From the NCBI RefSeq assembly GCF_044324785.1, contig NZ_CP172127.1: 64,000 nt of DNA. One strand, written 5' to 3'. The position numbers and the translations under genes are program-made. The notes under the pieces are model-generated. The model did no database searches. It was not told where the DNA came from and saw nothing but the letters and a program-made list of their open reading frames with translations. Shown one piece after another: positions 9,396 to 28,858 of this stretch; position 1 is the first letter of the stretch; each line of letters starts with the position of its first letter. The DNA comes from Escherichia coli. GTDB lineage: Bacteria > Pseudomonadota > Gammaproteobacteria > Enterobacterales > Enterobacteriaceae.

Positions 9396-9515
9396 GCTAC
9401 AGGTTGTAACAAGTTACTGTCCAGACGTAGCTCACAAATAGGAATTCATCAAGATCTGGACATCTGATGAGCAATCCCTACAATCGCCGCGTACTTTAAT
9501 TTTTCAGGATACATC

Positions 9516-14297: not shown

Positions 14298-14396
14298 TAT
14301 CCATCCTCCATCGCCACGATAGTTCATGGCGATAGGTAGCATAGCAATGAACGATTATCCCTATCAAGCATTCTGACTGATAATTGCTCACAGAAA

Positions 14397-14506
14397 CGGA
14401 GCGGCACCTCTTTTAACCCTTGAAGTCACTGCCCGTTTCGAGAGTTTCTCAACTCGAATAACTAAAGCCAACGTGAACTTTTGCGGATCTCCAGGATCCG
14501 CTTTTT
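14397..14506 (+). ncRNA. oxyS: OxyS small regulatory RNA, divergent from oxyR
   Basis: Sequence GAAACGGAGCGGCACCTCTTTTAACCCTTGAAGTCACTGCCCGTTTCGAGAGTTTCTCAACTCGAATAACTAAAGCCAACGTGAACTTTTGCGGATCTCCAGGATCCGCTTTTTTTT, including the terminator hairpin GCGGATC/GATCCGC and U tract. Confidence 0.93.
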
Positions 14507-14548: not shown

Positions 14549-15832
14549 TTACTCAATCCGATCTTTGACAATAAAGAAGTAACACAGCGCCCCGGTGAAC
14601 GTCACACAGGCCGCGATAACCAGCGCCAGATTAAACGAGTGCGTGGTATCCACTACCCAACCGGTTACGATCGGAGCAAAGGAAGCAAAAACAAAACTGC
14701 CAAAGTTTTGAATCCCGGCGATGGAAGCCACTTTTGTTTCTGACACCATCACCTGCACCAGTCCCCATGCAGATGTTCCCGCGAAATGCACGCAGAACAG
14801 CGCCATTGAGATAAACGCTACCGCCTGGGCTGGCGAGGAGGATTGCACGACCAGCAACGTGCCTAATGCCGACATCATCAAACCGCAGACAATAGCCGTT
14901 TTACGCGTCTTCGCCAGGTCGTAGCCTTTTTTCGCCAGCCGATCGACAACAATACCGTTAACCCACATCCCAACCGCCGCCGCGAGGAAAGGAATCGCCG
15001 CCACCCAACCGGTTTTCGCCAGACTGAAACCTTGTTCGGCCTGCAAATAACCGGGCAACCACGCGATGTAGAGCCAGCCTGTATAGTTGACGCCAGAGAA
15101 ACCTAAAATCATCCCCCAGGTTGTCCGATGCTTAAACAGCGCCAGCCACTCGCTAAATTGTAATTGTGGACGCGGTTTAACCGGCGCGGAGAGATAGGTC
15201 CGTTCTTCGTCGGTCAGGACAAACTGCGCCCGGTTGCGATACCACGCGTACCAACAGATCCCAACCAGAATCCCCGCCACGCCGATGATGACGAACATTG
15301 CCCGCCAGCCCCATGCCAGCTGCATCAATACAAGAGCAGGAGGCGCAATAGCCTGACCGATAACGGTAGATGAGTTAAAAATCCCCAGCGCCGTGCCGCG
15401 TTCTTTTTGCGCATACCAGTCGGTGATCGACTTTACTCCCGCAGGCATAAATGGCGCTTCGCCAATACTCAAACCAATACGCATTAAAATAAAGTGGCTA
15501 AAAGAATTAACCATTCCTGTTAATGCCTGCATTAATGACCAGAATATTAAGCCTGCGCCTAAAACTATTCGTGGGCCAAAGCGGTCTAGCAAAATACCGG
15601 AAGGGAGTTGTGAAAAACCATAAGACAGAGAAAAGGCAGAAAGCAAAACGCCAAATTCTGTCGCCGATAATCCTAACTCGCCACGAATCGCTTCGCCTGC
15701 CACGCTCAATGACGAACGGTCGAGGAAATTAACGATCCCCGCCATAAATAATAAAACCAGGGTCACTGTCTGAATACGACGAATCCGTTGCGGTTTATTA
15801 CCCGCAACACTGGTTGACACATCAACGTCCAT
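14549..15832 (-). CDS. MFS transporter, anion:cation symporter type (aldonate/hexuronate transporter-like)
   Basis: 427 aa, 12 predicted TM segments, N-terminal motif GIVNFLDRSSLSVAG typical of DgoT/ExuT/GudP-like MFS sugar-acid permeases; immediately downstream of the dehydratase gene. Confidence 0.8.
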   Translation of the reverse strand: MDVDVSTSVAGNKPQRIRRIQTVTLVLLFMAGIVNFLDRSSLSVAGEAIRGELGLSATEFGVLLSAFSLSYGFSQLPSGILLDRFGPRIVLGAGLIFWSLMQALTGMVNSFSHFILMRIGLSIGEAPFMPAGVKSITDWYAQKERGTALGIFNSSTVIGQAIAPPALVLMQLAWGWRAMFVIIGVAGILVGICWYAWYRNRAQFVLTDEERTYLSAPVKPRPQLQFSEWLALFKHRTTWGMILGFSGVNYTGWLYIAWLPGYLQAEQGFSLAKTGWVAAIPFLAAAVGMWVNGIVVDRLAKKGYDLAKTRKTAIVCGLMMSALGTLLVVQSSSPAQAVAFISMALFCVHFAGTSAWGLVQVMVSETKVASIAGIQNFGSFVFASFAPIVTGWVVDTTHSFNLALVIAACVTFTGALCYFFIVKDRIE

Positions 15833-16952
15833 TTTTAGCTCCTTGAGCGGAATTAATCGATTTGATGACTATTCAGAAAATAATTAAGCGAACCGTTATT
15901 ACCAGTTCCACAATGTGCCATCTTCCAGTCGTGCGACGGGGAGATACGCCGGGTCATACGGATATTTCGCCGCCAGTTTCTCATCGAAAGAAATACCCAG
16001 CCCCGGTTCATCGCCTGGGTGCATATAACCTTCATCGAAGCGCCAGCTATGCGGGAAGACTTCAAGCATTTGTTCGGAATAGCCCATGTACTCCTGAACG
16101 CCAAAGTTTGGCACCCAGAGGTCAAAATGCAGCGCCGCCGCATGACAAACAGGCGATAAATCTGAAGGGCCATGCGAACCGGTACGTACCTGATAAAGCG
16201 ATGCAAAATCGGCAATCCGTCGCATCCCGGTAATGCCGCCTGCATGGGTAATCGTCGTGCGAATATAGTCAATCAGCTGCTCTTCGATTAACTGCTTGCA
16301 GTCCCAGATACTGTTAAACACTTCACCGACCGCAATCGGCGTCACAGTATGCTGGCGAATCAGACGAAAACATTCCTGGTTCTCGGCAGGCGTCGGATCT
16401 TCCATCCAGAACAGGCGGTAATCCTCAATGCTCTTCCCAAAGCGCGCCGCTTCGATAGGAGTCAGGCGATGGTGCATGTCATGCAACAGATGTTCGTTAA
16501 AACCGAACTTATTACGCACCGCTTCGAATAACTTCGGCGTAAAATCGAGATACTTTTCTGAAGACCACAACTGCTCTTCTGGCCACAGGCCTTTGGTTGC
16601 CGGTTCATACGCCAGTCCTTTGCCCTTCGCCAGGCCATAAGTGGTTTGCATACCCGGTACACCACACTGCACACGAATCGCCTTAAAGCCCATCTGCTGG
16701 TGCTTTGCATAGTCTTCAAGGACTTCATCAATCGTACGCCCGGTGGTGTGGCAATAAACCATCACGCCTTCACGAGAAGCACCACCAAGCAGTTGATACA
16801 ATGGCATATTTGCCGCTTTTGCTTTGATATCCCACAACGCCATATCAATGGCAGAAATGGCTGACATCGTGACGGGGCCACGTCGCCAGTAAGCACCGGT
16901 GATGCTGCCAACTTACTGATTTAGTGTATGATGGTGTTTTTGAGGTGCTCCA

Positions 16953-17228
16953 GTGGCTTCTGTTTCTATCAGCTGTCCCTCCTGTTCAGCTACTGACGGG
17001 GTGGTGCGTAACGGCAAAAGCACCGCCGGACATCAGCGCTATCTCTGCTCTCACTGCCGTAAAACATGGCAACTGCAGTTCACTTACACCGCTTCTCAAC
17101 CCGGTACGCACCAGAAAATCATTGATATGGCCATGAATGGCGTTGGATGCCGGGCAACTGCCCGCATTATGGGCGTTGGCCTCAACACGATTTTACGTCA
17201 CTTAAAAAACTCAGGCCGCAGTCGGTAA
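16953..17228 (+). CDS. insA: IS1 protein InsA (zinc-finger DNA-binding)
   Basis: 91 aa [43 protein letters not shown]... Confidence 0.95.
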
Positions 17229-17650
17229 CCTCGCGCATACAGCCGGGCAGTGACGTCATCGTCTGCGCGGAAATGGACGAACAGTGGGGCTATGTCGGGG
17301 CTAAATCGCGCCAGCGCTGGCTGTTTTACGCGTATGACAGTCTCCGGAAGACGGTTGTTGCGCACGTATTCGGTGAACGCACTATGGCGACGCTGGGGCG
17401 TCTTATGAGCCTGCTGTCACCCTTTGACGTGGTGATATGGATGACGGATGGCTGGCCGCTGTATGAATCCCGCCTGAAGGGAAAGCTGCACGTAATCAGC
17501 AAGCGATATACGCAGCGAATTGAGCGGCATAACCTGAATCTGAGGCAGCACCTGGCACGGCTGGGACGGAAGTCGCTGTCGTTTTCAAAATCGGTGGAGC
17601 TGCATGACAAAGTCATCGGGCATTATCTGAACATAAAACACTATCAATAA
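17147..17650 (+). CDS. insB: IS1 transposase InsB (expressed as InsAB' by -1 frameshift)
   Basis: 167 aa ...[41 protein letters not shown]... Confidence 0.93.
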
Positions 17651-18261
17651 GTTGGAGTCATTACCGTAAGCACCTTTATAAAAGAATTGCCAGATATCTT
17701 CGATACGGCTGGCATCGCGGCCAATTAATTGTGGACAAAGATGATCTTTCAGATAAGAAGCGACCGACAATTCGCGCCCATTTAACGTGGCATCTCCTAA
17801 TCCACAAAGTCCGCTTTCAGTGGTTATTTTAAGCGTAACGAAATTACGTCCTGGGCAAGTAACAAAAACATCTGCAGCAATAATTTTCATTATTGCAATC
17901 TCCTGTGTTGTAAATAGACGCTTCAAACTTAATTTTACGCCTACTACCATACAAGAGAGAAAGAGCGATTATTCAACCGTGATCACATTAAAAACAAAAA
18001 TTCCCACCGAGGAACAAGAATATCCTCAAATTTCATCCACACTATTAATTACTATTGTTAAAACAACACGTTAAATAATCACATAACAAATTCCTCTAAG
18101 GAAGAGAGTCATAACAATAACAAATGATAATCATATTTTACTTAATTCAATACGTATCGATATGTTTATTTTAAAAAGATTTTTCGGAATGAGAGATGAA
18201 AAGAAGATACACAAACAGGAAGAAATACGATTAATATTGGTCGCGGTAAGGGTAGCCGTTC

Positions 18262-18378
18262 CTCCCTTCCGCAACCCATTAACCCTTGAAGTCACAGTCT
18301 ATTTCAGGCATTTCTCAACTCAAAATAACGAAGGCCAATGTGAACTTTGTGGCTCTCCAGGATCCGCTTTGTTTTCCA
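18262..18378 (+). repeat. diverged partial copy of the oxyS 3' half including a terminator-like hairpin
   Basis: ttaacccttgaagtcac identical to oxyS; the following ~80 nt are about 80 percent identical (tttctcaactcaaaataacgaaggccaatgtgaactttgtggctctccaggatccgctttgtttt versus oxyS tttctcaactcgaataactaaagccaacgtgaacttttgcggatctccaggatccgctttttttt). Confidence 0.8.
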
Positions 18379-19857
18379 TCAAACAACGGAACTCAGCGCA
18401 CTGGCAACCTGTTTAAAGCGAGCAAACCGTCGCCTGAGCATGTGTGCTTTTTCTACATTCGGTTCAAGACGAATCACGTTGAGATGCGTGGCCTTCATGG
18501 CCTGTTTGAATCCAGAATAAGCCCCTCCTCCTACTGCCGCACACATTGCAGCCGCTCTACAACCTGACTGTTCAATATCGACAATTTCAAGAGGCATGTT
18601 GCTGGCATCACAAAACATCTGCATCCAGATTCTGGAATGCGTTGGCCCGCCAGAGAAACGAATCGTTTGCAATGACTTATCAATCTCAATAAGACGGTCC
18701 TGATGCAACAAATGAGAAAAGACAATGCCCTGATAAATCGCGTACACCAAATCTTCTCTTTTATGATGCCCACACAGCCCCAAAAATCCCCCGCTTAATG
18801 CCTCATGGTAATTCGAGCCAAACAACCACGGGAAAAAGAGAATATCATTCTGCTTCTCATACCCTCGTTCCACCCACTCATTAATCACCCGATAGCTGTC
18901 AGGAAGATCCGGTAAAAATTGCTGCAAGAACCATGTCAAATTACTGGCTGATGTAGGGCTTCCCTCATGGGCGAAAAATGTACCTGGAATGCTAAATTTC
19001 CCCCATACATAGGGATAATCAGAAGGAATAATGCGATCAAAGATACGCGTTGCAATTGACCAGGTGCCAGCAACCGCACTTAACGTTGTACTGTCATAGA
19101 TGCCAGAAGTGAGCGCCGCACCAACGACATCAAAAACACCACCAAAAACAGGCGTTCCGGCGAGAAGCCCACATTGGCTGGCTGCTTCAGATGTCACAAC
19201 CCCTGCTAAATCAGCGGAGCCAATAATATCGGGAACCTTACCCGCAACTTCCTTAATCTCAAATAGGCGAAAAAGTTCAGCATCATAAGCACTGGTATAT
19301 TGATTATAAAAATTACTGCCTGAAATATTGGTTTCTTCACAAGCCAGTTTGCCAGTAAGCCGTGAACGTATGTAATCATGAACCATCAAAATGGTTCCGA
19401 TGCGGCCATAATTGTCAGTCTCATGTTTTTTCAACCAATGCAATAGTGCTACAGGGTGCGATGGCCAGAGCTGTTGCAGACTACGGTGATAGCTTTCGCG
19501 GTCAATTCCTTGTTCTTTCCAGCTTGCAACCAGTTGTTGTGCGCGAGAATCAGAGGAAACAATGCCGTATCGTAAGGGCTTACCTTGCCGGTCGAGCAGG
19601 TACAAACCTTTACCATGAGCAGAAAAACTGATGCCATCAATCTGACTCGCAGTAATATTGTTCTCTGACATCGACAGTGAAATGACCTGGCACGTTACCT
19701 TCCATAACGCCTCCATGTCGCGTTCGCAAAAACCAGGACATGGGCTTAACAGAGGTAACACTTGCGAAGAGACACCTATTTCACGTCCTTCTGCCGTATA
19801 AATTCCCGCTTTGGTTTCTGTACCACCTAAATCGACACCAATAAAATACCGCTCCAT
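18379..19857 (-). CDS. FGGY-family carbohydrate kinase (xylulokinase/L-xylulokinase-like)
   Basis: 492 aa; MERYFIGVDLGGTETKAGIYTAEG N-terminal actin-fold kinase motif; last gene of the minus-strand operon. Confidence 0.82.
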   Translation of the reverse strand: MERYFIGVDLGGTETKAGIYTAEGREIGVSSQVLPLLSPCPGFCERDMEALWKVTCQVISLSMSENNITASQIDGISFSAHGKGLYLLDRQGKPLRYGIVSSDSRAQQLVASWKEQGIDRESYHRSLQQLWPSHPVALLHWLKKHETDNYGRIGTILMVHDYIRSRLTGKLACEETNISGSNFYNQYTSAYDAELFRLFEIKEVAGKVPDIIGSADLAGVVTSEAASQCGLLAGTPVFGGVFDVVGAALTSGIYDSTTLSAVAGTWSIATRIFDRIIPSDYPYVWGKFSIPGTFFAHEGSPTSASNLTWFLQQFLPDLPDSYRVINEWVERGYEKQNDILFFPWLFGSNYHEALSGGFLGLCGHHKREDLVYAIYQGIVFSHLLHQDRLIEIDKSLQTIRFSGGPTHSRIWMQMFCDASNMPLEIVDIEQSGCRAAAMCAAVGGGAYSGFKQAMKATHLNVIRLEPNVEKAHMLRRRFARFKQVASALSSVV

Positions 19858-19873
19858 GATCCCTCCTTAGTTT

Positions 19874-20737
19874 CTAAATATTATCCCAGCCGGCAAGGCG
19901 CATTTTCTCTTCAATCCATTGACGTGCATGAATAATTTCTAATAGAGGTTCCGTCGCTTTTTCTGTCCACATTTCTATCAGAAACGTTCCGCGATAATTA
20001 AGATTACGCAGAATCTTAAATAATTTAATAAAATCTACACACCCTTCACCAAAAGGAACGTCACGAAATTGCCCTGGAGAATCAGGCGTTACTGGGTACG
20101 TATCTTTAAGATGGATTGCGGCAATTCGATCAATCCCCTTTACCAGCTCACTTTCCAGTTCATTACCCCATGCGGTCAGATTGCCAACATCCGGATAAAC
20201 GGTAAACCAAGGGGAATTAATTTTTGTATCCAGGACTTTCCATTTACTAATAGAATTAATAAATGGCGTATCCATGATTTCTACAGCACACATAACTTGT
20301 GCCGCTGCGGCCTGTTCAGCTGTCCAGGCCATCGCATCTTCAAACCAGGCGATAGTTTCTTCATTCTGCGGCTCATAATAAACGTCATAGCCTGCCAGTT
20401 GGATTGTTCGAATCCCCAAATCCTGCGCCAGGCGTAACGCCTTCAACATAATCGTACGCGCCTGCTGACGAGTATCTCTATCATGGCTACCAAATGGAAA
20501 ACGCCGGTGAGCAGACAGGCACATTGTCGGAATACGGATCCCCGTTTGCTGAATGGCGCTAATAAGCTCCATACGCTCGGTGAGCGACCAGTCCAGGCGG
20601 GCGAGTCGTTCATCATTCTCATCTACCGACATCTCAACAAAATCAAAACCGCAAGATTTAGCCAGGGCTAGTTTCTCTACCCAACTGGTATTCCTGGGTA
20701 GCGCTTTTTCATAAATACCTAACGGGTGGCGTCGCAT
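19874..20737 (-). CDS. sugar-phosphate 3-epimerase, TIM-barrel (L-xylulose/L-ribulose-5-phosphate 3-epimerase UlaE/SgbU-like)
   Basis: 287 aa; LGIYEKALP...GFDFVEMSVDE.DERLARLDWS...CLSAHRRFPFGS...IQLAGYDVYYE...PDVGNL...FGEG.VDF motifs shared with UlaE/SgbU. Confidence 0.85.
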   Translation of the reverse strand: MRRHPLGIYEKALPRNTSWVEKLALAKSCGFDFVEMSVDENDERLARLDWSLTERMELISAIQQTGIRIPTMCLSAHRRFPFGSHDRDTRQQARTIMLKALRLAQDLGIRTIQLAGYDVYYEPQNEETIAWFEDAMAWTAEQAAAAQVMCAVEIMDTPFINSISKWKVLDTKINSPWFTVYPDVGNLTAWGNELESELVKGIDRIAAIHLKDTYPVTPDSPGQFRDVPFGEGCVDFIKLFKILRNLNYRGTFLIEMWTEKATEPLLEIIHARQWIEEKMRLAGWDNI

Positions 20738-21813
20738 TATTTTCCCTCACGAGTGATCAATTGTTGTTGAAAGATTTTCCGGCTCTTATTCATGTCACGC
20801 TGCAACTGCCATTTTTGTTTGATGAATTTAAATGCCAATGCGGCGATCAATGTGATCCCCCATACCGCCAGATTGAAATGCAAACTAATTCCCAACAGAC
20901 TAAGGCCGGTAGCAATAACCTGAAGCACAAGTAAGGCACAAAAAACATGACTGACTTTACCCGCCCCACCGAATGGATCTGTGCCTCCCAATACAATTGC
21001 AAGAACCGTCAAGAGCAAATAGGAATCGCCATAGCCCATACGCGCCGAATTAAATCGCGCGAGCATAATAAGACCTGCTAATACACACAACATGCTGGAT
21101 ATAGCATATATAGCAATTAATACGCGGTCGGTGCGAATACCGCTAAACCATGTGGCGTTAATATTACTGCCACACATATAAATCGTTTTTCCCGTACGGG
21201 TTTTGCCGAGGAACAGAGCTAAAGCAACGGTGGTGACGATAAAAATCATCATCGGTACTGGGATCCCCATGATAACTTCAGACCCAATACTGCGGACTAC
21301 TGGTGGCATACCACTTAAAGCTGCCCCCTTAGTCAGGTAAATACCGATACCACTAATAATGGTCATGCTACCCAATGTGACCAAAATAGGGTGAGCGCCT
21401 ATATGAGAAATAATTAACCCAGTAATAGCTCCAATGATGATGGCAATAAGCATCGCCCCGACAATAGCCAGGAAGAGCCAAAACAACTGGCTACCTGTAG
21501 ATGCATCTGCGGGTACATATTGAATCAACACCCAGGCCATAAACAGGCTGGTCAGATTCGCAGTACCGATGATTGCCAGATTAAGCCCCCCGCTCAACAT
21601 CGGTATAAACATCGCAAACGTGAGCAACCCAAGCTCTGGCAATTGAAATGCAATGCTCAGAAAAGTATTGTCGGTGAAAAAACGCCCCGGCATTGCCAGA
21701 CTAAATAACACCACCGCAATAAAACATATTGATAATAAGCCTGAACTGGTACCATCTAGTGGAAAAAATATCCGCTTGTTCATTTCGATCCTCCCGTTAG
21801 ACGAAACCAACAT
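20737..21813 (-). CDS. sugar ABC transporter permease (CUT2/RbsC-like)
   Basis: 358 aa, multi-pass membrane protein, in operon with the ATPase and binding protein. Confidence 0.8.
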   Translation of the reverse strand: MLVSSNGRIEMNKRIFFPLDGTSSGLLSICFIAVVLFSLAMPGRFFTDNTFLSIAFQLPELGLLTFAMFIPMLSGGLNLAIIGTANLTSLFMAWVLIQYVPADASTGSQLFWLFLAIVGAMLIAIIIGAITGLIISHIGAHPILVTLGSMTIISGIGIYLTKGAALSGMPPVVRSIGSEVIMGIPVPMMIFIVTTVALALFLGKTRTGKTIYMCGSNINATWFSGIRTDRVLIAIYAISSMLCVLAGLIMLARFNSARMGYGDSYLLLTVLAIVLGGTDPFGGAGKVSHVFCALLVLQVIATGLSLLGISLHFNLAVWGITLIAALAFKFIKQKWQLQRDMNKSRKIFQQQLITREGK

Positions 21814-22789
21814 CAGTTTCTTTACGCTTTTTGTAATGGGTCACACAAATCGCCGAGACAATAACCACCCCAATAACGATATTGACGAAATAACTCGAGA
21901 CACCAATCAAATTAAGGCCGTTTTTAAGAATACCGATAAGAAATACGCCCATAAGCGTACCAATGACCGTACCACGTCCGCCTGATAAACTGGCACCGCC
22001 CAATACCGCTGCAGCCAGCACATCCAACTCTCCGCCAACCAATGCATTCGGCACAACTTCACTCATACGGTAAGCTTGCAGCATTCCACCAATTGCTGCA
22101 GCGGCACCAAGATAACCGTAAGCAAACAGATAAATTAGCGACACCCGAATCCCAATACGTCTTGCTGATTCGGTATTCCCTCCCACGGCATAAAGCTGAC
22201 GCCCAATATGGGTTTTGTTCATTATCACCCACGTCAGAAATGCCATTCCCAGCATAACCACTAACGGTAATCCGATCTGGTAATCTTCTCCGCCAAATTC
22301 AAAACTCAGGAAAGAACGCTGCGTAATCCACCAATCCGGTAAATCGTAAATACTGTGACCATTAGTCAACCACATCAACATACCGAACAGTAACGACTGC
22401 ATACTAATCGTAATGATGATAGAAACGACATTAAGGTAATAAATAAGAATAGCGTTTATCAAACCAAAAATGATGCCAAAAAAAACAGCAAACACCAGGC
22501 AGAAAAATGGATTTGATAGCGTTTCATTAAGCAGTAACGACGCCACAACATATTGCACAACCGAAGCTACTGCTGCAAAAGAGATATCAATTCCGCCAGT
22601 AACCAATACGACAAATAATCCGAGGGCGAAAATACCCGTTACGGCATAACTCTCCGAGAGATCGAGCAAGTTCTGTATTGATAAAAACTCATCGCTCATG
22701 ATGGAAAAAAATACCAGCATGAGAACAATGACCCATCCTAACCAAGCTTCGACTGAACGAGGAAACCGCAGCCGCATAAAGCTAACCAT
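21797..22789 (-). CDS. sugar ABC transporter permease (CUT2/RbsC-like)
   Basis: 330 aa hydrophobic multi-pass protein; overlaps neighbouring genes by a few codons (translational coupling). Confidence 0.8.
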   Translation of the reverse strand: MVSFMRLRFPRSVEAWLGWVIVLMLVFFSIMSDEFLSIQNLLDLSESYAVTGIFALGLFVVLVTGGIDISFAAVASVVQYVVASLLLNETLSNPFFCLVFAVFFGIIFGLINAILIYYLNVVSIIITISMQSLLFGMLMWLTNGHSIYDLPDWWITQRSFLSFEFGGEDYQIGLPLVVMLGMAFLTWVIMNKTHIGRQLYAVGGNTESARRIGIRVSLIYLFAYGYLGAAAAIGGMLQAYRMSEVVPNALVGGELDVLAAAVLGGASLSGGRGTVIGTLMGVFLIGILKNGLNLIGVSSYFVNIVIGVVIVSAICVTHYKKRKETDVGFV

Positions 22790-24299
22790 TAATCACCTCC
22801 GCCAACTGCTGCTCGGTATAATTCGAAGGCAACAGCTCATGAATAATCTTTCCGCGCTTCATATGAAAAATACGATCGCAGTTATAATAAGCTTCTGGTG
22901 CTTCATCAGTAATTAATATCACTGAAATACCCACACCTGAAAGCCGATGAATAAGCTGGTAAATACTATCTTTTGCGCCAATATCTACACCTACCGTTGG
23001 CGCATCCAGAATTAAAACCTTAGGTCGTGTTAAAATCCATTTAGCCAGGACAACCTTTTGTTGATTGCCACCAGATAGCGTTGAAAGTGGATTATTTGGA
23101 TCGGTGACCTTAATATCCAAATCCTGGATCCACTCCTTGACTAAGGTTTCTTTTCGATTTTCATCAATAAACCCCGATGGCGTCTTTAAACGATCCAGAA
23201 TCGAGAGCACCATATTATCGCTGATAGATTGGGGTAATACGGCCCCCAGTGTCAGGCGATCTTCTGAAACATATGCTATTCCCAGTTTTACCGCATGCGT
23301 GTTGTCTTTAATTGTAACGGGCTTACCTTCAAGATAAATATCACCACTATCTGCTCGAGTAATACCGAAAAGACTCAATGCTAATTCGGTTCTCCCCGCA
23401 CCAAGTAAACCACACAATCCCAGAACCTCGCCTTGGTGTAGTTTTAGAGATACATCTTCAAATTGCCCTTTTCTGCATAATTTTTTTAGTTCAAGAACTA
23501 CTTTACCTTCAACGCTATTTGGTAGTTTTTTCTGGTGGACTATAGTTTTTCCGGTCATTAACTCAGTAATATCGCCTGGAGAAAGTTGATTGGCAGCCCA
23601 CGTTCCAATTATCTCTCCATCACGGATGACCGTAATTCGGTCTGAGATTTCCTTAACTTCATCAAGGCGGTGGCTAACAAAAACTACGGTAATATTTTTA
23701 TCGCGTAAGTAATTCACTGTGCGTAGTAATTGATTAACTTCAGTGCGCGTCAATGACGCCGTTGGCTCGTCCATGATGACTAACCGGGCATCGGCAATCA
23801 GAGCCCGGCAAATAGCGACCTGTTGGCGTTGTGCAATCGGCAAATGTTGTACTAACGCATCAGGATCGAGATTGAATTCCAGTTCCTGAATTATTTTCTG
23901 TGATACATCTCGAAGTTGTTTTTTTCTGTGCAGCCCTAAATATCCCTTCAGGTTGTATTCAAAAGCGATATTTTCAGCCACAGAAAGATTTGGGAATAAA
24001 GAAAGATCCTGATATATCACCTGAATACCCAGTTCCCGAGCTTTATCAGGAGAAAGACGAGTCCAGGACTTACCATCTATAATAATTTCACTTCCCGAAT
24101 CAGGAACATAAACACCACACAGCGTTTTGATCAGAGTACTTTTACCACACCCATTCGCACCAGCAAGACAATGAACCTCACCTTTATTTAAGGTAAGATT
24201 GATATTTTTTAGAGCCCTATGGCCACCGAAACTTTTCGTTAGTGACCTTAGCGTCACTAATGGTTGCTCCGCATTCTTCTCTATAATATGAGGCATCAT
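22782..24299 (-). CDS. sugar ABC transporter ATP-binding protein with two fused ABC domains (RbsA/MglA/AraG type)
   Basis: 505 aa; Walker A GANGCGKST in domain 1, second P-loop GLLGAGRTE, ABC signature LSGGNQQK. Confidence 0.88.
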   Translation of the reverse strand: MMPHIIEKNAEQPLVTLRSLTKSFGGHRALKNINLTLNKGEVHCLAGANGCGKSTLIKTLCGVYVPDSGSEIIIDGKSWTRLSPDKARELGIQVIYQDLSLFPNLSVAENIAFEYNLKGYLGLHRKKQLRDVSQKIIQELEFNLDPDALVQHLPIAQRQQVAICRALIADARLVIMDEPTASLTRTEVNQLLRTVNYLRDKNITVVFVSHRLDEVKEISDRITVIRDGEIIGTWAANQLSPGDITELMTGKTIVHQKKLPNSVEGKVVLELKKLCRKGQFEDVSLKLHQGEVLGLCGLLGAGRTELALSLFGITRADSGDIYLEGKPVTIKDNTHAVKLGIAYVSEDRLTLGAVLPQSISDNMVLSILDRLKTPSGFIDENRKETLVKEWIQDLDIKVTDPNNPLSTLSGGNQQKVVLAKWILTRPKVLILDAPTVGVDIGAKDSIYQLIHRLSGVGISVILITDEAPEAYYNCDRIFHMKRGKIIHELLPSNYTEQQLAEVING

Positions 24300-24362
24300 A
24301 ATATTCCTGAATACGACTAAAGGAATTCCGGGTCAAATTTGACCCGGTGATTTACGGTAAAA

Positions 24363-25367
24363 TTACAAGCCTAACTTCACTAAATGTCGTGTATTTTCAA
24401 GATCGAGCTTTTCTGGATTATCACTATAAATAGTGTTGTTATTAACCTTGATCTCGCCCATATCACCGATTTTTACACCGTCTTTAATAGGTTCACCGTT
24501 CATCATTGCCGTCGCAACCTGGACAAAAACCTTACCCGCAATCATAGGGTTTGAAATATATCCCCCATCAATGGCGCCTTTTTCGAGTAGCTTAATTCCC
24601 TGACCTGGAGTGAAGGTTCCAAAAACGCAAATTGCGTCATTTTTCTTCCGCTTATCAATAGCACGCCCCGCACCAATTGGTCCTTGTGAACCAAATGACA
24701 TAATGCCTTTAAGATCTTTATATTTAGACATTAAATCGTTCGTCGTGCGCATTGAATCATCCACCGATTCAGCAACACCAAAACGATCTTCAACCAACGT
24801 CATATTTGGATAATGTTCTTTTTGATAAGCAATCGCGGCATTGGCCCAGTCATTTACCAAAGGCACGGTCAGACTGCCGACAAACATGGCGTATTTACCT
24901 TCTTCGCCCATGCACTTCGCCATATCTTTCATATGATTGGCACCCATTGTCTGGGTATTTAACAACTCAAAATCCCAATCTGCATTTTTTTGATCTGGTG
25001 ATTCGTGGGTAATAACTTTAATACCGGCTTCTTGTGCACGCTTAAGTACAGGTTCAAGAACCTTTGCATCGTTAGGAACAACCCCAATAACATCCACTTT
25101 TCGTGCAATTAAATCTTCAATCGCCCGAACCTGTTCAGCTGGATCTGCCGTTGTAGGGCCGACCTGCCATGCATCAACCCCCAATAGTTTTCCTTCATCT
25201 TTAATGCCTTGTTCCATCACATTAAACCAGGGAATGCCACCGACTTTTACTACTACCCCCATCGTAAAAGGTTTATTCGCTTTTTGTGATGTTACAGTCT
25301 GATCAGCCCATGCAGCAGTGGAAGATAATACGGTAGCAATAAGGCAGGGTAAGATTAATTTTTTCAT
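24363..25367 (-). CDS. periplasmic sugar-binding protein of ABC transporter (RbsB/LsrB-like)
   Basis: 334 aa with N-terminal signal peptide MKKLILPCLIATVLSSTAAWA; first gene of operon. Confidence 0.82.
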   Translation of the reverse strand: MKKLILPCLIATVLSSTAAWADQTVTSQKANKPFTMGVVVKVGGIPWFNVMEQGIKDEGKLLGVDAWQVGPTTADPAEQVRAIEDLIARKVDVIGVVPNDAKVLEPVLKRAQEAGIKVITHESPDQKNADWDFELLNTQTMGANHMKDMAKCMGEEGKYAMFVGSLTVPLVNDWANAAIAYQKEHYPNMTLVEDRFGVAESVDDSMRTTNDLMSKYKDLKGIMSFGSQGPIGAGRAIDKRKKNDAICVFGTFTPGQGIKLLEKGAIDGGYISNPMIAGKVFVQVATAMMNGEPIKDGVKIGDMGEIKVNNNTIYSDNPEKLDLENTRHLVKLGL

Positions 25368-25489
25368 CGTAATTTCCTTAAGAAATAGTTCAGGTGTCAG
25401 GAAAACTCGATATAATATCGACCTGACTATTTATATAATTTATAATCCCTTAGGCATTGATTAATAATTTAGACAATAAATAATGCCTA

Positions 25490-26299
25490 TTATTTATCAA
25501 CCTCCACAATGTTTAATTGTGGAAATTGTGTTCGATACCGAGTATCTGTACAAACATTAGTCACCAGAATATCGATTTCATCCAGCGTGCATATTTTACT
25601 AAATGCATACTGTTCAAACTTACTGGAGTCGACCAGCAATATTTTTTGTCCTGACACCTGAAGCATCACCTGTTTAAGTCTGGCATTAATTTCACTGCCA
25701 TCGCGGACACCATTCCCCAGATTCAACCCCTGGCATGAAAAGAAAAAACTGTTGATTTGAAAATTTCGGATCGCCCCCTCTGCAACCGGGCCATGAAAAT
25801 CATCATGTCGCTCAGAATACTCACCACCGATACCAATAATTCGAACTCGATCACGGCAAGCCAACGCCTGAATTATCCGTAATGAATTTGTAACTACAGT
25901 AACATCTATATCGGGAATTTGACGAGCTAAAAACCAACAAGTACTACTGTTATCCATTAAAATACAATCACCAGGGTGAATAAATTGCAATGCGGCCTTC
26001 GCAATTCTGGCTTTTATATCAGGATTTTCTTCAGTCCGTTTACGGAATGATTCCGCACGATCGATACTATTATCTTGCCACGCATTATCGGCGAGCATAA
26101 CCGGAGCGCTATCAGATGAATCCAGAGCGACCGCGCCACCAAAGCTACGGATTAACTTTTTGTTGCGCTCCAGTACCGTTAAATCCCGACGAATTGTCTC
26201 AGGAGACGCTTTAAATAATCGTGATAATTCTGTTACCTGTACAGCACCTTGTTTTTGTACATGTGCGCATATCATTTTATGGCGCTCTGCCTGCAACAT
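25490..26299 (-). CDS. DeoR-family transcriptional regulator
   Basis: 269 aa; N-terminal HTH (VTELSRLFKASPETIRRDL) and C-terminal DeoR sugar-phosphate-binding domain; upstream of the ABC operon on the same strand. Confidence 0.85.
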   Translation of the reverse strand: MLQAERHKMICAHVQKQGAVQVTELSRLFKASPETIRRDLTVLERNKKLIRSFGGAVALDSSDSAPVMLADNAWQDNSIDRAESFRKRTEENPDIKARIAKAALQFIHPGDCILMDNSSTCWFLARQIPDIDVTVVTNSLRIIQALACRDRVRIIGIGGEYSERHDDFHGPVAEGAIRNFQINSFFFSCQGLNLGNGVRDGSEINARLKQVMLQVSGQKILLVDSSKFEQYAFSKICTLDEIDILVTNVCTDTRYRTQFPQLNIVEVDK

Positions 26300-26752
26300 A
26301 GTATCGGTCCGTTATTATCAAATTAGCATGCTTATATAATTAACTGTTCCCTCATAAAATAAAGTGATAGGAATCAAGATTCATTTTATAAATATAATCG
26401 CAAACAGAAATGGTGATCTTTACCACAAATTAAATTGAGAATATTCTACTATTGGACATTTTTTTGAGATATACGTCACTAAATAAGCTTTATTCTGTCA
26501 CCTGACGAAAAATTTAAATGCAAAAACAAAAATAATCGGGCATAGCAATCTCTTCCATTCATGACCGAATACGCCCGAATAAAACCGTTTACGCCCACTT
26601 ACCCTCTTTCATTGCCTTCTTACATGCCTTGAATATTTTACATTTCTTATATTCAGCGTAATTTAGGCAACATAATTTACGAGCAAAAATAGCCAAAACC
26701 CAAAAGTTAAAGTTTATTTATATAATACATACAGATTATCGTGGAGTTAAAA

Positions 26753-27435
26753 ATGGATACGCTAAAGGAAAAAGTTCTTGCTGCGAATTTATCACTACCC
26801 CTTCATCAGTTAGTGACGTTTACCTGGGGAAATGTTAGCGGTATTGATCGCGAAAAAGGTGTCATGGTTATTAAACCTTCTGGGGTCGAATACAGCCAAA
26901 TGGGCAGGTGGTAGTGGATTTACAAAGTGGTGAAGTTATTGATGGACACAGGAAACCCTCTTCAGACACAGATACTCATCTGGCGCTATACCGTGCTTTC
27001 CCGGATATTGGAGGTATCGTTCATACCCATTCCCGACACGCCACAATATGGGCTCAGGCCGGAAAAGATCTCACGGCCTTTGGGACAACCCATGCAGATT
27101 ATTTCTACGGCACTATCCCCTGTACACGCCCCATGAAGGATGACGAAATTAATGGACAATATGAATATGAAACGGGGCGAGTGATTATTGAAACGTTCAG
27201 GCAACGAGAAATATCTCCCGCTGACATTCCGGCTGTTTTAGTAAACAGTCATGGCCCCTTTGCCTGGGGAACTGATCCCGCGAACGCCGTGCATAACGCC
27301 GTTGTACTTGAAGAAATCGCCTATATGAATCTCTTTACACAACAGCTACACCCCCATCTTACGGCTATTCAACAGCCTCTACTGGATAAGCATTTTTTAC
27401 GCAAGCATGGTGCCAATGCTTATTACGGGCAGTAA
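26753..27435 (+). pseudogene. L-ribulose-5-phosphate 4-epimerase (AraD/SgbE/UlaF-like), frameshifted near codon 50
   Basis: ATG at 26753 with GGAG RBS gives [53 protein letters not shown] then stop at 26912; +1 frame continues [52 protein letters not shown]...HGANAYYGQ, strongly AraD-like. Confidence 0.8.
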
Positions 27436-27484
27436 CCCTCTAAGCATGGCCTGGCGTTTTGCCAGGCCACGAATCGCCCAGGAC

Positions 27485-28858
27485 TTACCCCAACCGCGCC
27501 CTTGCAAAAGCAATCGCCTGCGCCACCTGCTGCGGTGAGACGCCGCCTTTTGCAGCACGCTTGTCGAGGCACGATTGCAGCGACAGAATCGGATAGACAT
27601 CTTCGCCAATCACCTGGCTGAATTTCTGCAACTCACTGAGCGGCAGATCTTCCAGCGGTTTGCCCTGACGAATGGCTTCCACCACCGCTTCACCAACAAT
27701 ATGGTGCGCCTCGCGGAACGGTACGCCTTTCGCCACCAGGTAATCCGCCAGTTCAGTGGCGTTCGCATACCCCTGCTGCGCCGCTTCCTGGCAACGTGGA
27801 CATTTCACCTGAATGCCGTCCAGCACCAGCGCCGCCATATGCAAGCAGTCCAGCCAGGTATCGAGCGCGTCGAACAGACCTTCTTTGTCTTCCTGCATAT
27901 CTTTGTTGTAAGCCAGCGGCAAACCTTTCAGCGTCATCATCATGCCGGTTAACGCCCCCTGCACCCGACCGCATTTACCGCGAATCAGCTCCAGCGCATC
28001 CGGGTTTTTCTTCTGCGGCATTAATGATGAACCTGAAGTCACGCGGTCAGAAAGCTCCACAAATCCCGCTTCGCCGGTGTTAAAGAAAATCAGATCTTCA
28101 GCAAAACGCGACAGATGCACCATGCCGATAGCGGCAGCAGAAAGCAGTTCCAGCACATGATCACGGTCAGAAACGCTGTCGAGACTGTTACGGGTCGCCG
28201 AAGCAAAGCCCAGCCAGCCTGCTAACTGTTCACGGTCGATTTCATAGGCCGTTCCCGCCAGTGCGCCACAGCCTAACGGGCTGACATCCAGACGCTTAAG
28301 CGCGTCCTGCAAACGGCTTTCATCACGCGCCAGCATCTCAACGTAGGCCAGGCACCAGTGCGCGAAAGTCACCGGTTGAGCGCGTTGCAGGTGGGTGTAA
28401 CCTGGCATTACCGCGTCCTGATTGTTTTGTGCGGTTTCCACCAGCGCCGATTGCAGCTGCCGGTTAGCCGTCAGTAACTCGCTAACGGTATCTTTGCACC
28501 ACAGTTTCAGGTCAGTCGCGACCTGGTCATTACGGCTACGCCCGGTGTGCAGTTTTTTGCCTAACTGACCCACTTTGTCGATCAATTTGCCTTCCACCCA
28601 GCTATGGATATCTTCGGCGTCGCTTTCAAGGATTTGTTGTGGCCTGGCGCGAACATCTTCCAGCAGCACGTTCAGCGCCTCTTCCAGTTGCGCCTGTTCT
28701 TCTGCGGTCAACACACCGACCGTTACCAGGGCTTTGGACCAGGCCACAGAGCCAACAATATCCTGCTCCGCCAGACGGTAATCAAAGCGCAGTGAGTCGT
28801 TGAATTGTTTGAACCGTTGATCTGCTGCCTGGGTAAAACGCCCGCCCCAAAGTGCCAT
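27485..28858 (-). CDS. argH: argininosuccinate lyase ArgH
   Basis: 457 aa; [37 protein letters not shown]..., fumarate lyase signature [10 protein letters not shown]. Confidence 0.95.

What the first reader, a model, noticed from the sequence alone, without database searches (positions are those of the whole stretch)
18379..26299. DeoR-regulated operon combining a CUT2 sugar ABC transporter with an FGGY kinase and a UlaE/SgbU-like 3-epimerase
Gene order on the minus strand is regulator, binding protein, two-domain ATPase, two permeases, 3-epimerase, kinase, with small overlaps suggesting translational coupling. The enzymes parallel the kinase / 3-epimerase / 4-epimerase steps of the ula and yiaK-S pathways of E. 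coli, but coupled to an ABC importer rather than a PTS or TRAP system, and with no UlaD/SgbH-type decarboxylase present. The substrate is not deducible from sequence; a rare pentulose or ketose is a reasonable guess.
Basis: partly seen in the sequence, partly recalled or inferred. Interest (0 to 1): 0.6.

Follow-up and report, generated by a model that had tools for sequence, protein, structure and literature searches.

The report
Likely L-xylulose uptake and breakdown module
This is a horizontally acquired nine-kilobase gene module, found in about 3% of complete E. coli genomes, that most likely imports the rare sugar L-xylulose and converts it in three steps to an ordinary pentose-phosphate intermediate; it is an uncharacterised relative of known systems, and its last enzyme gene is broken in this strain.

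Summary
The seven genes exist as described, and every family assignment holds. The unit is larger than reported. An eighth gene, a divergent SgbE-like L-ribulose-5-P 4-epimerase (26753-27435), belongs to it. All eight genes travel together in seven enterobacterial genera, in different chromosomal contexts.

In E. coli the module is a 9.4-kb, 43%-GC insertion (about 18095-27484) between manD and argH. It occurs in 146 of 5,426 complete genomes.

The enzymes are paralogues of LyxK (42% identity), SgbU (70%) and SgbE (71%). There is no decarboxylase, dehydrogenase or isomerase, which implies L-xylulose to L-xylulose-5-P to L-ribulose-5-P to D-xylulose-5-P.

The binding protein is 49% identical to AauA, the EHEC D-ribulose binder (PDB 9I1M). 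It keeps five of AauA's six ligand contacts. The sixth, His167, which bonds the sugar's O2 and O4, is Val in all 10 orthologues and His in all 107 other relatives examined. L-xylulose is the C4 epimer of D-ribulose.

In this window the 4-epimerase gene has a private 10-bp frameshift deletion, and the neighbouring manD is split by IS1.

No paper in the searched library describes the locus. The verdict is a new variant of a known kind. The substrate is inferred, not shown.

The parts
18095..27484 (.). Whole inserted module. About 9.4 kb at 43% GC, against 52% in the flanks. It lies between manD and argH.
   Evidence: Strains that carry only MFS-manD between oxyR and argH (L013) match the window up to 18094 and again from 27485. 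About 294 bp in those strains is replaced by the module here.
18379..19857 (-). LyxK-like FGGY kinase (492 aa). Predicted L-xylulose 5-kinase.
   Evidence: It is 42% identical over its full length to E. coli K-12 LyxK (E 4e-143). All other FGGY models score far lower and below their cut-offs: XylB 201 bits against 380, and the D-ribulokinase-type TIGR01315 96 against 408. The next-nearest kinase clade (52-56% identity) sits in operons with a Zn-ADH and the same two epimerases.
19874..20737 (-). SgbU-like L-xylulose-5-P / L-ribulose-5-P 3-epimerase (287 aa).
   Evidence: NF009689 scores 476 bits (cut-off 200) and TIGR00542 scores 458 (cut-off 272). Identity is 70% to SgbU and 54% to UlaE. The PDB hit is UlaE 3CQH at E 8e-100. 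The residues aligned to UlaE Glu155, Asp185, His211 and Glu251 are conserved. The module enzymes form a clade sister to SgbU.
20737..21783 (-). ABC permease 2 (348 aa from the PGAP start; the raw ORF runs to 21813).
   Evidence: BPD_transp_2 is recorded on the orthologues. It matches the AlsC, RbsC and AraH models below their cut-offs. The PGAP start comes from L001/L002.
21797..22789 (-). ABC permease 1 (330 aa).
   Evidence: BPD_transp_2. The RbsC model scores 175 bits, below its cut-off of 398.
22782..24299 (-). Fused two-domain ABC ATPase (505 aa).
   Evidence: Two ABC_tran domains are recorded on the orthologues. XylG, AraG, YtfR and RbsA models score 424-452 bits, all below their equivalog cut-offs.
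24328..24347 (-). GC-rich hairpin (CCGGGTCAAATTTGACCCGG) between the binding-protein and ATPase genes. It is a candidate mRNA stabiliser or partial terminator that would favour binding-protein expression.
   Evidence: Found by the terminator-like scan and visible in the sequence. The function is inferred.
24363..25367 (-). Periplasmic substrate-binding protein (334 aa, with a signal peptide ending AWA|DQ). It is a Val171 clade within the AauA family.
   Evidence: It is 49% identical to AauA (PDB 9I1M, a D-ribulose complex) and 48% to 3D02. AauA contacts K37, W43, E118, E196 and S223 are conserved, and H167 is Val. Val is found in 10 of 10 orthologues and His in 107 of 107 other relatives.
25396..25427 (-). 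Hairpin in the regulator/binding-protein gap (GTCAGG TCGATA TTA TATCGA GTTTTC CTGAC). Its role is unknown.
   Evidence: Seen in the sequence. It is also present in C. amalonaticus, with one G-C pair changed to a G-U wobble. It was not tested further.
25490..26299 (-). DeoR-family regulator (269 aa), the first gene of the seven-gene transcription unit.
   Evidence: HTH_DeoR and DeoRC are recorded on the orthologues. Its best NCBIfam hits, FucR, SrlR and AgaR, are all below their cut-offs. It is 58% identical to the regulator of the Klebsiella ADH/kinase/epimerase operon.
26536..26580 (.). Candidate operator. Tandem ATTCGGGCGT and ATTCGGTCAT boxes (26561-26580, minus strand) face an inverted TCGGGCAT (26536-26543, plus strand).
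   Evidence: This is the most conserved block of the divergent control region across seven genera. The two tandem boxes are the only matches to ATTCGGNCRT in the 64-kb window. Binding by the regulator is inferred.
26412..26480 (.). Two CRP-like sites: 26412-26427 GGTGATCTTTACCACA and 26465-26480 TGAGATATACGTCACT.
   Evidence: Their positions are conserved in the seven-genus alignment, and several orthologues match the consensus better, for example Pantoea CGTGATAAAAATCACA. The number of pattern matches in the window is no higher than chance, so the support is weak.
26753..27435 (+). SgbE-like L-ribulose-5-P 4-epimerase gene, divergently transcribed. It is a PSEUDOGENE in this window: 10 bp (TTGCAGATAT) is deleted after 26906.
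   Evidence: The deletion shows in the alignment with the intact alleles. The intact allele scores 430 bits on NF009002 (cut-off 386) and 411 on TIGR00760 (cut-off 389). It is 71% identical to SgbE. The residues aligned to AraD D76, H95, H97, D120, H171 and Y229 are conserved. None of the 146 module-positive complete E. coli genomes has the deletion.

Best explanation
This is a self-contained, horizontally mobile catabolic module for a free L-ketopentose, most probably L-xylulose.

Proposed mechanism:
1. The secreted binding protein captures the sugar in the periplasm.
2. It hands the sugar to a CUT2-type ABC importer made of two different permeases and one fused double ATPase.
3. In the cytoplasm the LyxK-like FGGY kinase makes L-xylulose-5-phosphate.
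4. The SgbU-like 3-epimerase converts that to L-ribulose-5-phosphate.
5. The divergently encoded SgbE-like 4-epimerase converts that to D-xylulose-5-phosphate, which enters the pentose-phosphate pathway.
6. The DeoR-family regulator, encoded as the first gene, probably binds the conserved TTCGGNCAT repeats in the shared control region. It probably responds to a phosphorylated intermediate.
7. CRP-like sites suggest catabolite control.

What is shown: gene content, homologies, conserved catalytic residues, eight-gene synteny in seven genera, and the clade-specific His-to-Val change at a ligand contact.

What is inferred: the identity of the sugar, the operator, the effector, and whether the regulator represses or activates.

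In this particular strain the 4-epimerase gene is frameshifted. The last step must therefore be supplied by AraD, SgbE or UlaF, or the pathway is dead.
For: 1. Enzyme set.
- The kinase is 42% identical to LyxK, the 3-epimerase 70% to SgbU and the 4-epimerase 71% to SgbE.
- Both epimerases exceed the NCBIfam cut-offs for L-ribulose-5-P 3- and 4-epimerase.
- Their catalytic and metal-binding residues are conserved.
- Only L-xylulose needs exactly kinase, 3-epimerase and 4-epimerase to reach D-xylulose-5-P. This follows from the known LyxK/SgbU/SgbE chemistry.

2. Module composition.
- The same eight genes, and no others, move together in E. coli, Citrobacter amalonaticus, Yersinia enterocolitica, Brenneria, Pantoea, Edwardsiella and Providencia, in unrelated flanking contexts.
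- No dehydrogenase, isomerase or decarboxylase is ever included, so the imported molecule is itself the kinase substrate.

3. The next kinase clade.
- The next-nearest kinase clade (52-56% identity) always sits in operons with a Zn-dependent polyol-type dehydrogenase and the same two epimerases.
- That arrangement is expected for a polyol oxidised to L-xylulose.
- The Klebsiella regulator is 58% identical to this one.

4. The binding protein.
- It belongs to the AauA family. AauA binds the ketopentose D-ribulose with a Kd of 2 uM, and its complex is solved as 9I1M (PMC12307932).
- Five of the six AauA contact residues are conserved.
- The sixth is His167, which according to the paper hydrogen-bonds the C2 and C4 hydroxyls. 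It is Val in all 10 orthologues and His in all 107 other relatives examined.
- L-xylulose (3R,4S) differs from D-ribulose (3R,4R) only at C4.

5. The sister transporter group.
- This group (62-65% identical binding protein, His retained) is linked to AlsE, AlsK and a ribokinase.
- Those enzymes act on sugars with the D-erythro configuration, which fits the idea that His goes with 4R.
Against: - No experiment links any gene of this module to any sugar.
- The kinase is only 42% identical to LyxK, and LyxK itself also phosphorylates 3-keto-L-gulonate.
- The kinase is the least conserved gene of the module, at 60-73% identity between genera.
- Two further clade-specific changes in the binding protein (T253, and S272 where relatives have Trp) could enlarge the pocket. 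A larger ligand is therefore not excluded.
- The link between His167 and C4 stereochemistry rests on one published structure and on stereochemical reasoning, not on a model of this protein with its ligand.
- A natural source of free L-xylulose for gut, urinary or plant-associated bacteria is not established.
- The promoter and CRP scans are not above chance.
Confidence: 0.6

Rival explanations
1. The transported sugar is L-ribulose, or a mixture of L-ketopentoses. The kinase is promiscuous, and the 3-epimerase only widens the range of usable sugars.
For: L-ribulose-5-P is an intermediate of the same pathway, and the 4-epimerase alone would complete it. The binding-protein family binds ketopentoses.
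Against: The 3-epimerase is retained in all seven genera and is among the better conserved genes of the module, at 74-90% identity. That argues it is needed. L-ribulose is the enantiomer of the AauA ligand and differs at both stereocentres. E. coli already has AraB and AraD for L-ribulose.
Confidence: 0.12
2. An aldopentose such as L-lyxose or L-xylose is imported and then isomerised to L-xylulose by a host enzyme outside the module, such as rhamnose isomerase or fucose isomerase.
For: E. coli mutants use L-lyxose through RhaA and LyxK (my own knowledge of the published work, not checked here). In Yersinia enterocolitica the module lies next to the fucose operon, which includes fucI.
Against: The adjacency to the fucose operon is seen in one genus only; the other six contexts are unrelated. 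No isomerase ever travels with the module. The only ligand complex solved among the close relatives of the binding protein holds a ketose, and AauA binds the aldose L-arabinose 200-fold more weakly.
Confidence: 0.08
3. The substrate is a ketohexose with the same 3R,4S configuration, such as D-sorbose. The kinase would make the 6-phosphate, the 3-epimerase D-tagatose-6-P, and the 4-epimerase D-fructose-6-P.
For: The chemistry is formally parallel. The closest transporter relatives are linked to hexose enzymes, AlsE and AlsK. The clade-specific Trp-to-Ser and His-to-Val changes could make room for a larger sugar.
Against: Identity of 70-71% to SgbU and SgbE, and scores above the curated L-ribulose-5-P epimerase cut-offs, argue for pentulose-phosphate substrates. 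D-sorbose is very rare in nature.
Confidence: 0.07
4. It is a third D-ribulose / L-arabinose scavenging transporter like Aau or Rbl, and the enzymes serve some other purpose.
For: The binding protein is 49% identical to AauA, with five of six contact residues conserved.
Against: D-ribulose-5-P needs no epimerase from this module to enter the pentose-phosphate pathway. The kinase is not of the D-ribulokinase type: TIGR01315 scores 96 bits against a cut-off of 408. The contact residue His167 is replaced in the whole clade. Aau is AraC-controlled and Rbl has no regulator, whereas here a DeoR regulator is built in.
Confidence: 0.05
5. The module takes up 3-keto-L-gulonate or another ascorbate-breakdown acid and relies on the host's SgbH or UlaD decarboxylase.
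For: LyxK also phosphorylates 3-keto-L-gulonate (my own knowledge of the yiaK-S literature). Some database names for relatives say '3-keto-L-gulonate kinase'.
Against: No decarboxylase, reductase or lactonase accompanies the module in any of the seven genera. The solved ligand complex in this binding-protein family holds a neutral furanose, whereas the yiaK-S acid-sugar system uses a TRAP transporter.
Confidence: 0.05

Closest known systems
lyxK-sgbU-sgbE part of the E. coli K-12 yiaK-S operon (L-xylulose / 2,3-diketo-L-gulonate branch)
   Same: It has the same three enzyme types. The 3-epimerase and 4-epimerase are 70-71% identical to SgbU and SgbE, and the kinase is 42% identical to LyxK. 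The predicted end product, D-xylulose-5-P, is the same.
   Different: There is no SgbH decarboxylase, no YiaK reductase and no YiaL. Uptake is by a CUT2 ABC importer rather than the YiaMNO TRAP system. The regulator is DeoR-type rather than the IclR-type PlaR (YiaJ). The 4-epimerase is transcribed divergently.
AauABCD (EHEC OI-17) and RblABCD-K-I (Citrobacter rodentium) D-ribulose ABC systems, PMC12307932
   Same: It is the same binding-protein family (49% identical to AauA, five of six ligand contacts conserved) with the same CUT2 architecture. It is likewise an accessory ketopentose-scavenging locus of enteric bacteria.
   Different: His167 is replaced by Val in the whole clade. The kinase is LyxK-like, not a D-ribulokinase. 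Two L-pentulose-phosphate epimerases are present. It has its own DeoR regulator. The chromosomal site differs (oxyR-argH).
ula (L-ascorbate) regulon of E. coli
   Same: It has a UlaE-like 3-epimerase (54% identity), a UlaF-like 4-epimerase (59%) and a DeoR-family regulator (29% identical to UlaR).
   Different: There is no PTS (UlaABC), no UlaG lactonase and no UlaD decarboxylase. A kinase replaces PTS phosphorylation.
Uncharacterised Klebsiella / Serratia operon: Zn-ADH, RbsB-like ABC, LyxK-like kinase, 3-epimerase, 4-epimerase (L012, L016, L017)
   Same: It has the nearest non-orthologous kinase (52-56% identity) and the same two epimerase types. The Klebsiella DeoR regulator is 58% identical to this one.
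   Different: It carries a polyol-type dehydrogenase, an unrelated binding protein (25% identity) and a single permease. It presumably starts from a pentitol rather than from the free ketose.
Uncharacterised Serratia / Dickeya operon: DeoR, ABC, AlsE, AlsK, ribokinase (L014, L015)
   Same: It has the nearest transporter chassis. The binding protein is 62-65% identical, the ATPase 63-64%, the permeases 60-72% and the DeoR regulator 47-48%, in the same gene order.
   Different: Its enzymes are a D-allulose-6-P 3-epimerase, an allose kinase and a ribokinase. Its binding protein keeps His at the AauA-167 position.

Membership tests
CUT2 (ribose-type) ABC sugar importers, TC 3.A.1.2 | Type I periplasmic binding protein (Peripla_BP_4), a single ATPase polypeptide with two ABC domains, and BPD_transp_2 permeases | tested here: met
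   Pfam families are recorded on the orthologues. The proteins match the RbsA/XylG/AraG, RbsC/AlsC/AraH and RhaS/LsrB models.
L-ribulose-5-phosphate 3-epimerase (UlaE/SgbU) | Score above the curated family cut-off, and conserved metal-binding and catalytic residues | tested here: met
   NF009689 scores 476 bits (cut-off 200), TIGR00542 458 (cut-off 272) and NF009688 381 (cut-off 317). The residues aligned to UlaE E155, D185, H211 and E251 are conserved (the residue list comes from my memory of the UlaE structure paper). It clusters with SgbU.
L-ribulose-5-phosphate 4-epimerase (AraD/SgbE/UlaF) | Score above the curated cut-off, conserved Zn ligands and catalytic Asp and Tyr, and an intact reading frame | tested here: not met
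   The intact alleles (L001, L002) meet the test: NF009002 scores 430 bits (cut-off 386), TIGR00760 411 (cut-off 389), and D76, H95, H97, D120, H171 and Y229 are conserved. The copy in this window has a 10-bp frameshift deletion at about codon 52, so here it is a pseudogene.
L-xylulose kinase (LyxK, EC 2.7.1.53) | Orthology to P37677, and kinase activity on L-xylulose | tested here: inconclusive
   It is 42% identical to LyxK over its full length, far closer than to any other characterised FGGY type. It forms a separate clade, and no curated LyxK model was among the hits. Activity cannot be tested with these tools.
Aau/Rbl D-ribulose ABC transporters | Binding protein carrying the full set of AauA D-ribulose contacts: K37, W43, E118, H167, E196, S223 | tested here: not met
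   Five of the six are conserved. H167 is Val in this protein and in all 10 orthologues.
Aau/Rbl D-ribulose ABC transporters | Coupling to a D-ribulokinase (RblK, or AraB through AraC control) | tested here: not met
   The kinase scores 96 bits on the pentulose/D-ribulokinase model TIGR01315 (cut-off 408) and 70 bits on the ribulokinase model. The module's regulator is DeoR-type, not AraC.
yiaK-S / ula 3-keto-L-gulonate pathways | A 3-keto-L-gulonate-6-P decarboxylase (SgbH/UlaD), plus YiaK reductase or UlaG lactonase | tested here: not met
   No such gene lies in or next to the module in the window or in any of the six other genera.
Lsr autoinducer-2 system | LsrB, LsrA, LsrC, LsrD and LsrK equivalogs, plus LsrF, LsrG and LsrR | tested here: not met
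   All scores fall below the cut-offs: LsrB 104 bits (cut-off 384), LsrA 403 (586), LsrK 140 (528), LsrC 124 (388) and LsrD 113 (500). No LsrF, LsrG or LsrR is present.
DeoR/GlpR family regulators | An N-terminal HTH_DeoR domain and a C-terminal DeoRC sugar-phosphate-binding domain | tested here: met
   Both Pfam domains are recorded on all orthologues. It hits the FucR, SrlR, AgaR, GlpR and UlaR models, all below their equivalog cut-offs. The effector and the sign of regulation cannot be tested here.

The most novel reading that the evidence does not exclude
The module is a dedicated high-affinity scavenging system for free L-xylulose. The source could be the host (the mammalian glucuronate-xylulose pathway, with L-xylulose excreted in urine) or fungi and other microbes. 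The system would give the minority of E. coli lineages that carry it, and Yersinia, Edwardsiella and Providencia, a private nutrient niche. A single His-to-Val switch in the binding pocket would be the stereochemical determinant that retunes an AauA-type ketose binder from 4R sugars (D-ribulose) to 4S sugars (L-xylulose).
Probability: 0.3. Interest if true: 0.6.

Novelty: new variant of a known kind. Interest (0 to 1): 0.42.

Why it matters
Accessory sugar importers have recently been shown to decide colonisation fitness of pathogenic E. coli. Aau and Rbl, which take up D-ribulose, are the examples (PMC11127945, PMC12307932).

This locus would be a third, differently tuned member of that transporter family. 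It is joined to a complete L-xylulose pathway and carried by only about 3% of complete E. coli genomes and by several other enteric pathogens.

If the prediction holds, it would have three consequences.
- It would give a genetic basis for direct L-xylulose use.
- It would give a simple sequence marker (Val against His) for ligand stereochemistry in this binding-protein family.
- It would give a clear example of operon mosaicism: one DeoR-plus-ABC chassis combined with different enzyme cassettes.

If the prediction fails, the locus is still an ordinary accessory sugar operon.

Tried and rejected
- **Sigma-70 promoter scan of 18000-27500.** It found 14 sites against 23.9 expected, so no promoter can be called from it. 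The terminator-like scan found 12 against 9.2 expected. I kept only the hairpin after the binding-protein gene, and only as a candidate.
- **CRP consensus search.** It gave 25 matches in the window against 26 expected. The two sites in the control region are supported only by conserved position.
- **Rfam.** No RNA family matches inside the module.
- **NCBIfam equivalog models for transport components.** None passes its cut-off, so no substrate can be read from them.
- **Literature.** Searches for the RefSeq protein accessions, for oxyR/argH islands, and for L-xylulose with ABC transporters or binding proteins found no paper on this locus. Only open-access papers and bioRxiv preprints were searched.
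- **ManD and the MFS transporter next door.** I considered whether they belong to the unit and rejected it. They occur without the module in other E. coli strains, and they are absent from the module in every other genus, including C. amalonaticus at the same argH-oxyR site.
- **The E. coli kinase as a foreign replacement.** I considered this and found the picture only partly consistent with it. The kinase is the least conserved gene in every genus pair. However, nucleotide identity to C. amalonaticus does drop at 19175-20062.
- **Searches not run.** I did not run the expensive genome-wide or metagenome scans, nor a structure prediction. Neither would have identified the ligand.

Full report

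Yes. ORF listing shows seven co-directional minus-strand genes at exactly the stated coordinates.

NCBIfam profile searches assign them as follows.
- An FGGY kinase.
- An L-ribulose-5-phosphate 3-epimerase. It scores 476 bits on NF009689 (cut-off 200) and 458 bits on TIGR00542 (cut-off 272).
- Two ribose-type permeases.
- A fused two-domain sugar ABC ATPase.
- A type I periplasmic binding protein.
- A DeoR-family regulator.

PGAP annotates the same genes in other E. coli genomes.

Three corrections apply.
- The second permease most likely starts at 21783 (348 aa). The two permease genes are then 13 bp apart rather than overlapping.
- The true overlaps are ATPase/permease 1 (8 bp) and permease 2/3-epimerase (1 bp).
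- The unit does not end at 26299, as explained next.

**2. What the unit really is.**

The window is an E. coli-type chromosome: rrn, btuB riboswitch, oxyR/OxyS, argHBC, argE, ppc.

Upstream of the regulator lies a 453-bp control region. Beyond it is a divergently transcribed gene for an L-ribulose-5-phosphate 4-epimerase. The intact allele scores 430 bits on NF009002 (cut-off 386) and 411 bits on TIGR00760 (cut-off 389).

The eight genes are, in order: 4-epimerase, then divergently DeoR, binding protein, ATPase, permease, permease, 3-epimerase, kinase. They occur together, in the same order and with nothing added, in:
- Yersinia enterocolitica, Brenneria goodwinii and Pantoea coffeiphila;
- Citrobacter amalonaticus, Edwardsiella tarda and Providencia.

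The flanking genes are unrelated in each case, except C. amalonaticus, which has the module at the same argH-oxyR site.

The neighbouring manD and MFS-transporter genes are not part of the unit. Other E. coli strains have them between oxyR and argH without the module. Comparison with such a strain places the insertion at about 18095-27484, where it replaces about 294 bp.

The module is 43% GC against 52% in the flanks in E. coli. In Yersinia, Pantoea and Providencia it matches its host. This indicates recent acquisition by E. coli.

It is present in 146 of 5,426 complete E. coli genomes, always on the chromosome.

**3. State in this window.**

Alignment with two intact alleles shows that 10 bp (TTGCAGATAT) is missing after position 26906 of the 4-epimerase gene. 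The frame shifts at about codon 52, upstream of all catalytic residues.

None of the 146 module-positive complete genomes has this deletion.

The adjacent manD is split by an IS1 element.

The other seven module genes are intact and 99-100% identical to those of strain CFSAN061763.

**4. The enzymes.**

| Module protein | Closest K-12 protein | Identity | Other comparison |
|---|---|---|---|
| Kinase | LyxK | 42% over full length (E 4e-143) | - |
| 3-epimerase | SgbU | 70% | UlaE 54% |
| 4-epimerase | SgbE | 71% | UlaF 59% |

(All.)

- Other FGGY models score much lower and below their cut-offs: XylB 201 bits (cut-off 380), LsrK 140 (cut-off 528), and the D-ribulokinase-type TIGR01315 96 (cut-off 408).
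- The residues aligned to the UlaE metal and catalytic residues (E155, D185, H211, E251) are all conserved. So are those aligned to the AraD-type residues (D76, H95, H97, D120, H171, Y229). Both residue lists come from my knowledge of the published structures.
- In neighbour-joining trees the module 3-epimerases are sister to SgbU, excluding UlaE.
- No decarboxylase, reductase, lactonase, dehydrogenase or isomerase is in the module in any genus.

By the established LyxK/SgbU/SgbE chemistry, kinase plus 3-epimerase plus 4-epimerase is exactly what converts L-xylulose to D-xylulose-5-phosphate. D-ribulose would need no epimerase from this module, and L-ribulose would not need the 3-epimerase.

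**5. The transporter.**

The binding protein's best matches among solved structures are 3D02 (Klebsiella) and 9I1M.

9I1M is AauA, the binding protein of the EHEC Aau transporter. It binds D-ribulose with a Kd of about 2 uM and L-arabinose more than 200-fold more weakly. Citrobacter rodentium has the related Rbl system with its own D-ribulokinase (PMC12307932).

Identity to AauA is 49%.

The paper names six residues that contact D-ribulose: Lys37, Trp43, Glu118, His167, Glu196 and Ser223. Five align to identical residues here.

His167 stacks on the sugar and, according to the paper, hydrogen-bonds its C2 and C4 hydroxyls. It aligns to Val171.

In an alignment of the 117 full-length proteins (over 300 aa) among the 120 closest database relatives, all 10 orthologues (79-100% identity) have Val. 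All 107 others (53-68% identity) have His.

A strict search for clade-specific positions returns only three: V171, T253, and S272 where relatives have Trp.

L-xylulose (3R,4S) is the C4 epimer of D-ribulose (3R,4R). A change at the residue that reads O4 is therefore what one would expect for this switch. This is an inference, not a demonstration.

**6. Mosaic origin.**

Per-gene comparison shows two different sets of closest relatives.

*Transport half.* It is closest to an uncharacterised Serratia/Dickeya operon with the same order of DeoR, binding protein, ATPase and two permeases.

| Component | Identity |
|---|---|
| DeoR | 47-48% |
| Binding protein | 62-65% |
| ATPase | 63-64% |
| Permeases | 60-72% |

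The enzymes of that operon are a D-allulose-6-P 3-epimerase, an allose kinase and a ribokinase, all above their NCBIfam cut-offs. They act on D-erythro-configured sugars, and its binding protein keeps His.

*Enzyme half.* It is closest to Klebsiella and Serratia operons made of Zn-ADH, an RbsB-like ABC system, kinase, 3-epimerase and 4-epimerase.

| Component | Identity |
|---|---|
| Kinase | 52-56% |
| 3-epimerase | 53% |
| 4-epimerase | 67% |
| Klebsiella DeoR | 58% |

Such an operon is what a pentitol-to-L-xylulose pathway would look like. Both comparisons support L-xylulose-5-P as the shared intermediate. They also support the view that in this module, which has no dehydrogenase, the free ketose is what is imported.

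**7. Regulation (weakly supported).**

Alignment of the divergent control region from seven genera shows one strongly conserved block. In the window it consists of tandem ATTCGGGCGT and ATTCGGTCAT boxes at 26561-26580 on the minus strand. They face an inverted TCGGGCAT at 26536-26543.

The two tandem boxes are the only matches to ATTCGGNCRT in 64 kb. I propose this block as the DeoR operator.

Two CRP-like sites (26412-26427 and 26465-26480) are conserved in position, but their number is not above chance.

A GC-rich hairpin follows the binding-protein gene at 24328-24347.

A second hairpin and a conserved motif (CAAYRCCAGNGRAA, at about 25446-25460) lie in the 122-bp gap between the regulator and binding-protein genes. 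Their roles are unknown.

DeoR-family proteins usually sense sugar phosphates, and most are repressors, but FucR, the best model hit, is an activator. The sign of regulation and the effector are therefore open.

**8. Comparison with what is known, and novelty.**

- The pathway chemistry is known, from LyxK/SgbU/SgbE in E. coli K-12. From my own knowledge, the L-xylulose route was described biochemically in Klebsiella (Aerobacter) aerogenes in the 1960s.
- The transporter family is known (Aau/Rbl).
- I found no description of their combination: a self-contained DeoR-controlled module that couples an AauA-family importer with a clade-specific pocket change to the three L-xylulose enzymes, without a decarboxylase. 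Five literature searches found nothing on this locus. Only open-access papers and preprints were searched.

I file it as a new variant of a known kind. It is not a member of the Aau/Rbl D-ribulose systems, because the contact-residue test and the kinase test both fail. It is not a member of the yiaK-S or ula systems, because there is no decarboxylase. It is not an Lsr system, because all models score below their cut-offs.

**9. Verdict.**

- My confidence that the module is a ketose import and catabolism unit running through L-xylulose-5-P, L-ribulose-5-P and D-xylulose-5-P is high, about 0.85.
- My confidence that the physiological substrate is L-xylulose itself is about 0.6.
- Interest is moderate. 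The locus is a concrete, testable candidate for a third ketopentose-scavenging system in enteric bacteria, but it is not a new kind of biology.

Noticed in passing
window 15899-17950, with IS1 at about 16.9-17.67 kb: The manD gene (D-mannonate dehydratase family) next to the module is split by an IS1 element. Its partner MFS transporter (14549-15832) is intact. In the closest complete genome, strain N3, manD instead carries an internal stop. The manD-MFS pair occurs in many E. coli strains without the ABC module.
   Followed up: partly
window 26906/26907: The 10-bp deletion in the module's 4-epimerase gene is private to this strain. All 146 module-positive complete E. coli genomes have the intact sequence. 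Together with manD::IS1, this suggests local gene decay in this lineage.
   Followed up: yes
window 18379-20062, compared with L009 (C. amalonaticus): The kinase is the least conserved module gene in every genus pair, at 60-73% identity against 73-90% for the 3-epimerase. Between E. coli and C. amalonaticus, nucleotide identity drops from about 80% to about 60% at 19175-20062, the 5' half of the kinase gene. That could be a recombination patch or relaxed or diversifying selection.
   Followed up: partly
L014 8134-16072 (Serratia) and L015 8156-16193 (Dickeya): A sister operon has the same DeoR-plus-ABC chassis but different enzymes: AlsE (D-allulose-6-P 3-epimerase), AlsK (allose kinase) and a ribokinase. 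It appears to be an uncharacterised D-allose / D-allulose / D-ribose-type system distinct from E. coli alsRBACEK.
   Followed up: partly
L012 4250-13060 (Klebsiella), L016 4102-12063, L017 4340-12030 (Serratia): A widespread operon (the Klebsiella kinase cluster has 829 member sequences) combines a Zn-dependent dehydrogenase, an RbsB-like ABC transporter with one permease, a LyxK-like kinase and both epimerases. It is a likely pentitol (L-arabitol or xylitol) to L-xylulose pathway. I found no characterisation of it.
   Followed up: partly
window 25396-25460 (minus strand): The gap between the regulator and binding-protein genes holds a motif conserved in six of the seven genera compared (CAAYRCCAGNGRAA; TCAATGCCTAAGGGA in the window) and a nested hairpin followed by GTTTTC. 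It could be an internal promoter or operator, an attenuator, or an RNA processing site.
   Followed up: no
L005 561-7771 (Yersinia enterocolitica): In Yersinia the module sits directly next to the complete L-fucose operon (fucO, fucA, fucP, fucI, fucK, fucU, fucR). This is seen in one genus only and may be coincidence, but fucose isomerase is reported to act on L-xylose.
   Followed up: no
window 1117-6128, 9213-9402 and 14393-14502: Ordinary landmarks were confirmed by Rfam: an rRNA operon with a tRNA, the btuB cobalamin riboswitch, and OxyS next to oxyR.
   Followed up: yes
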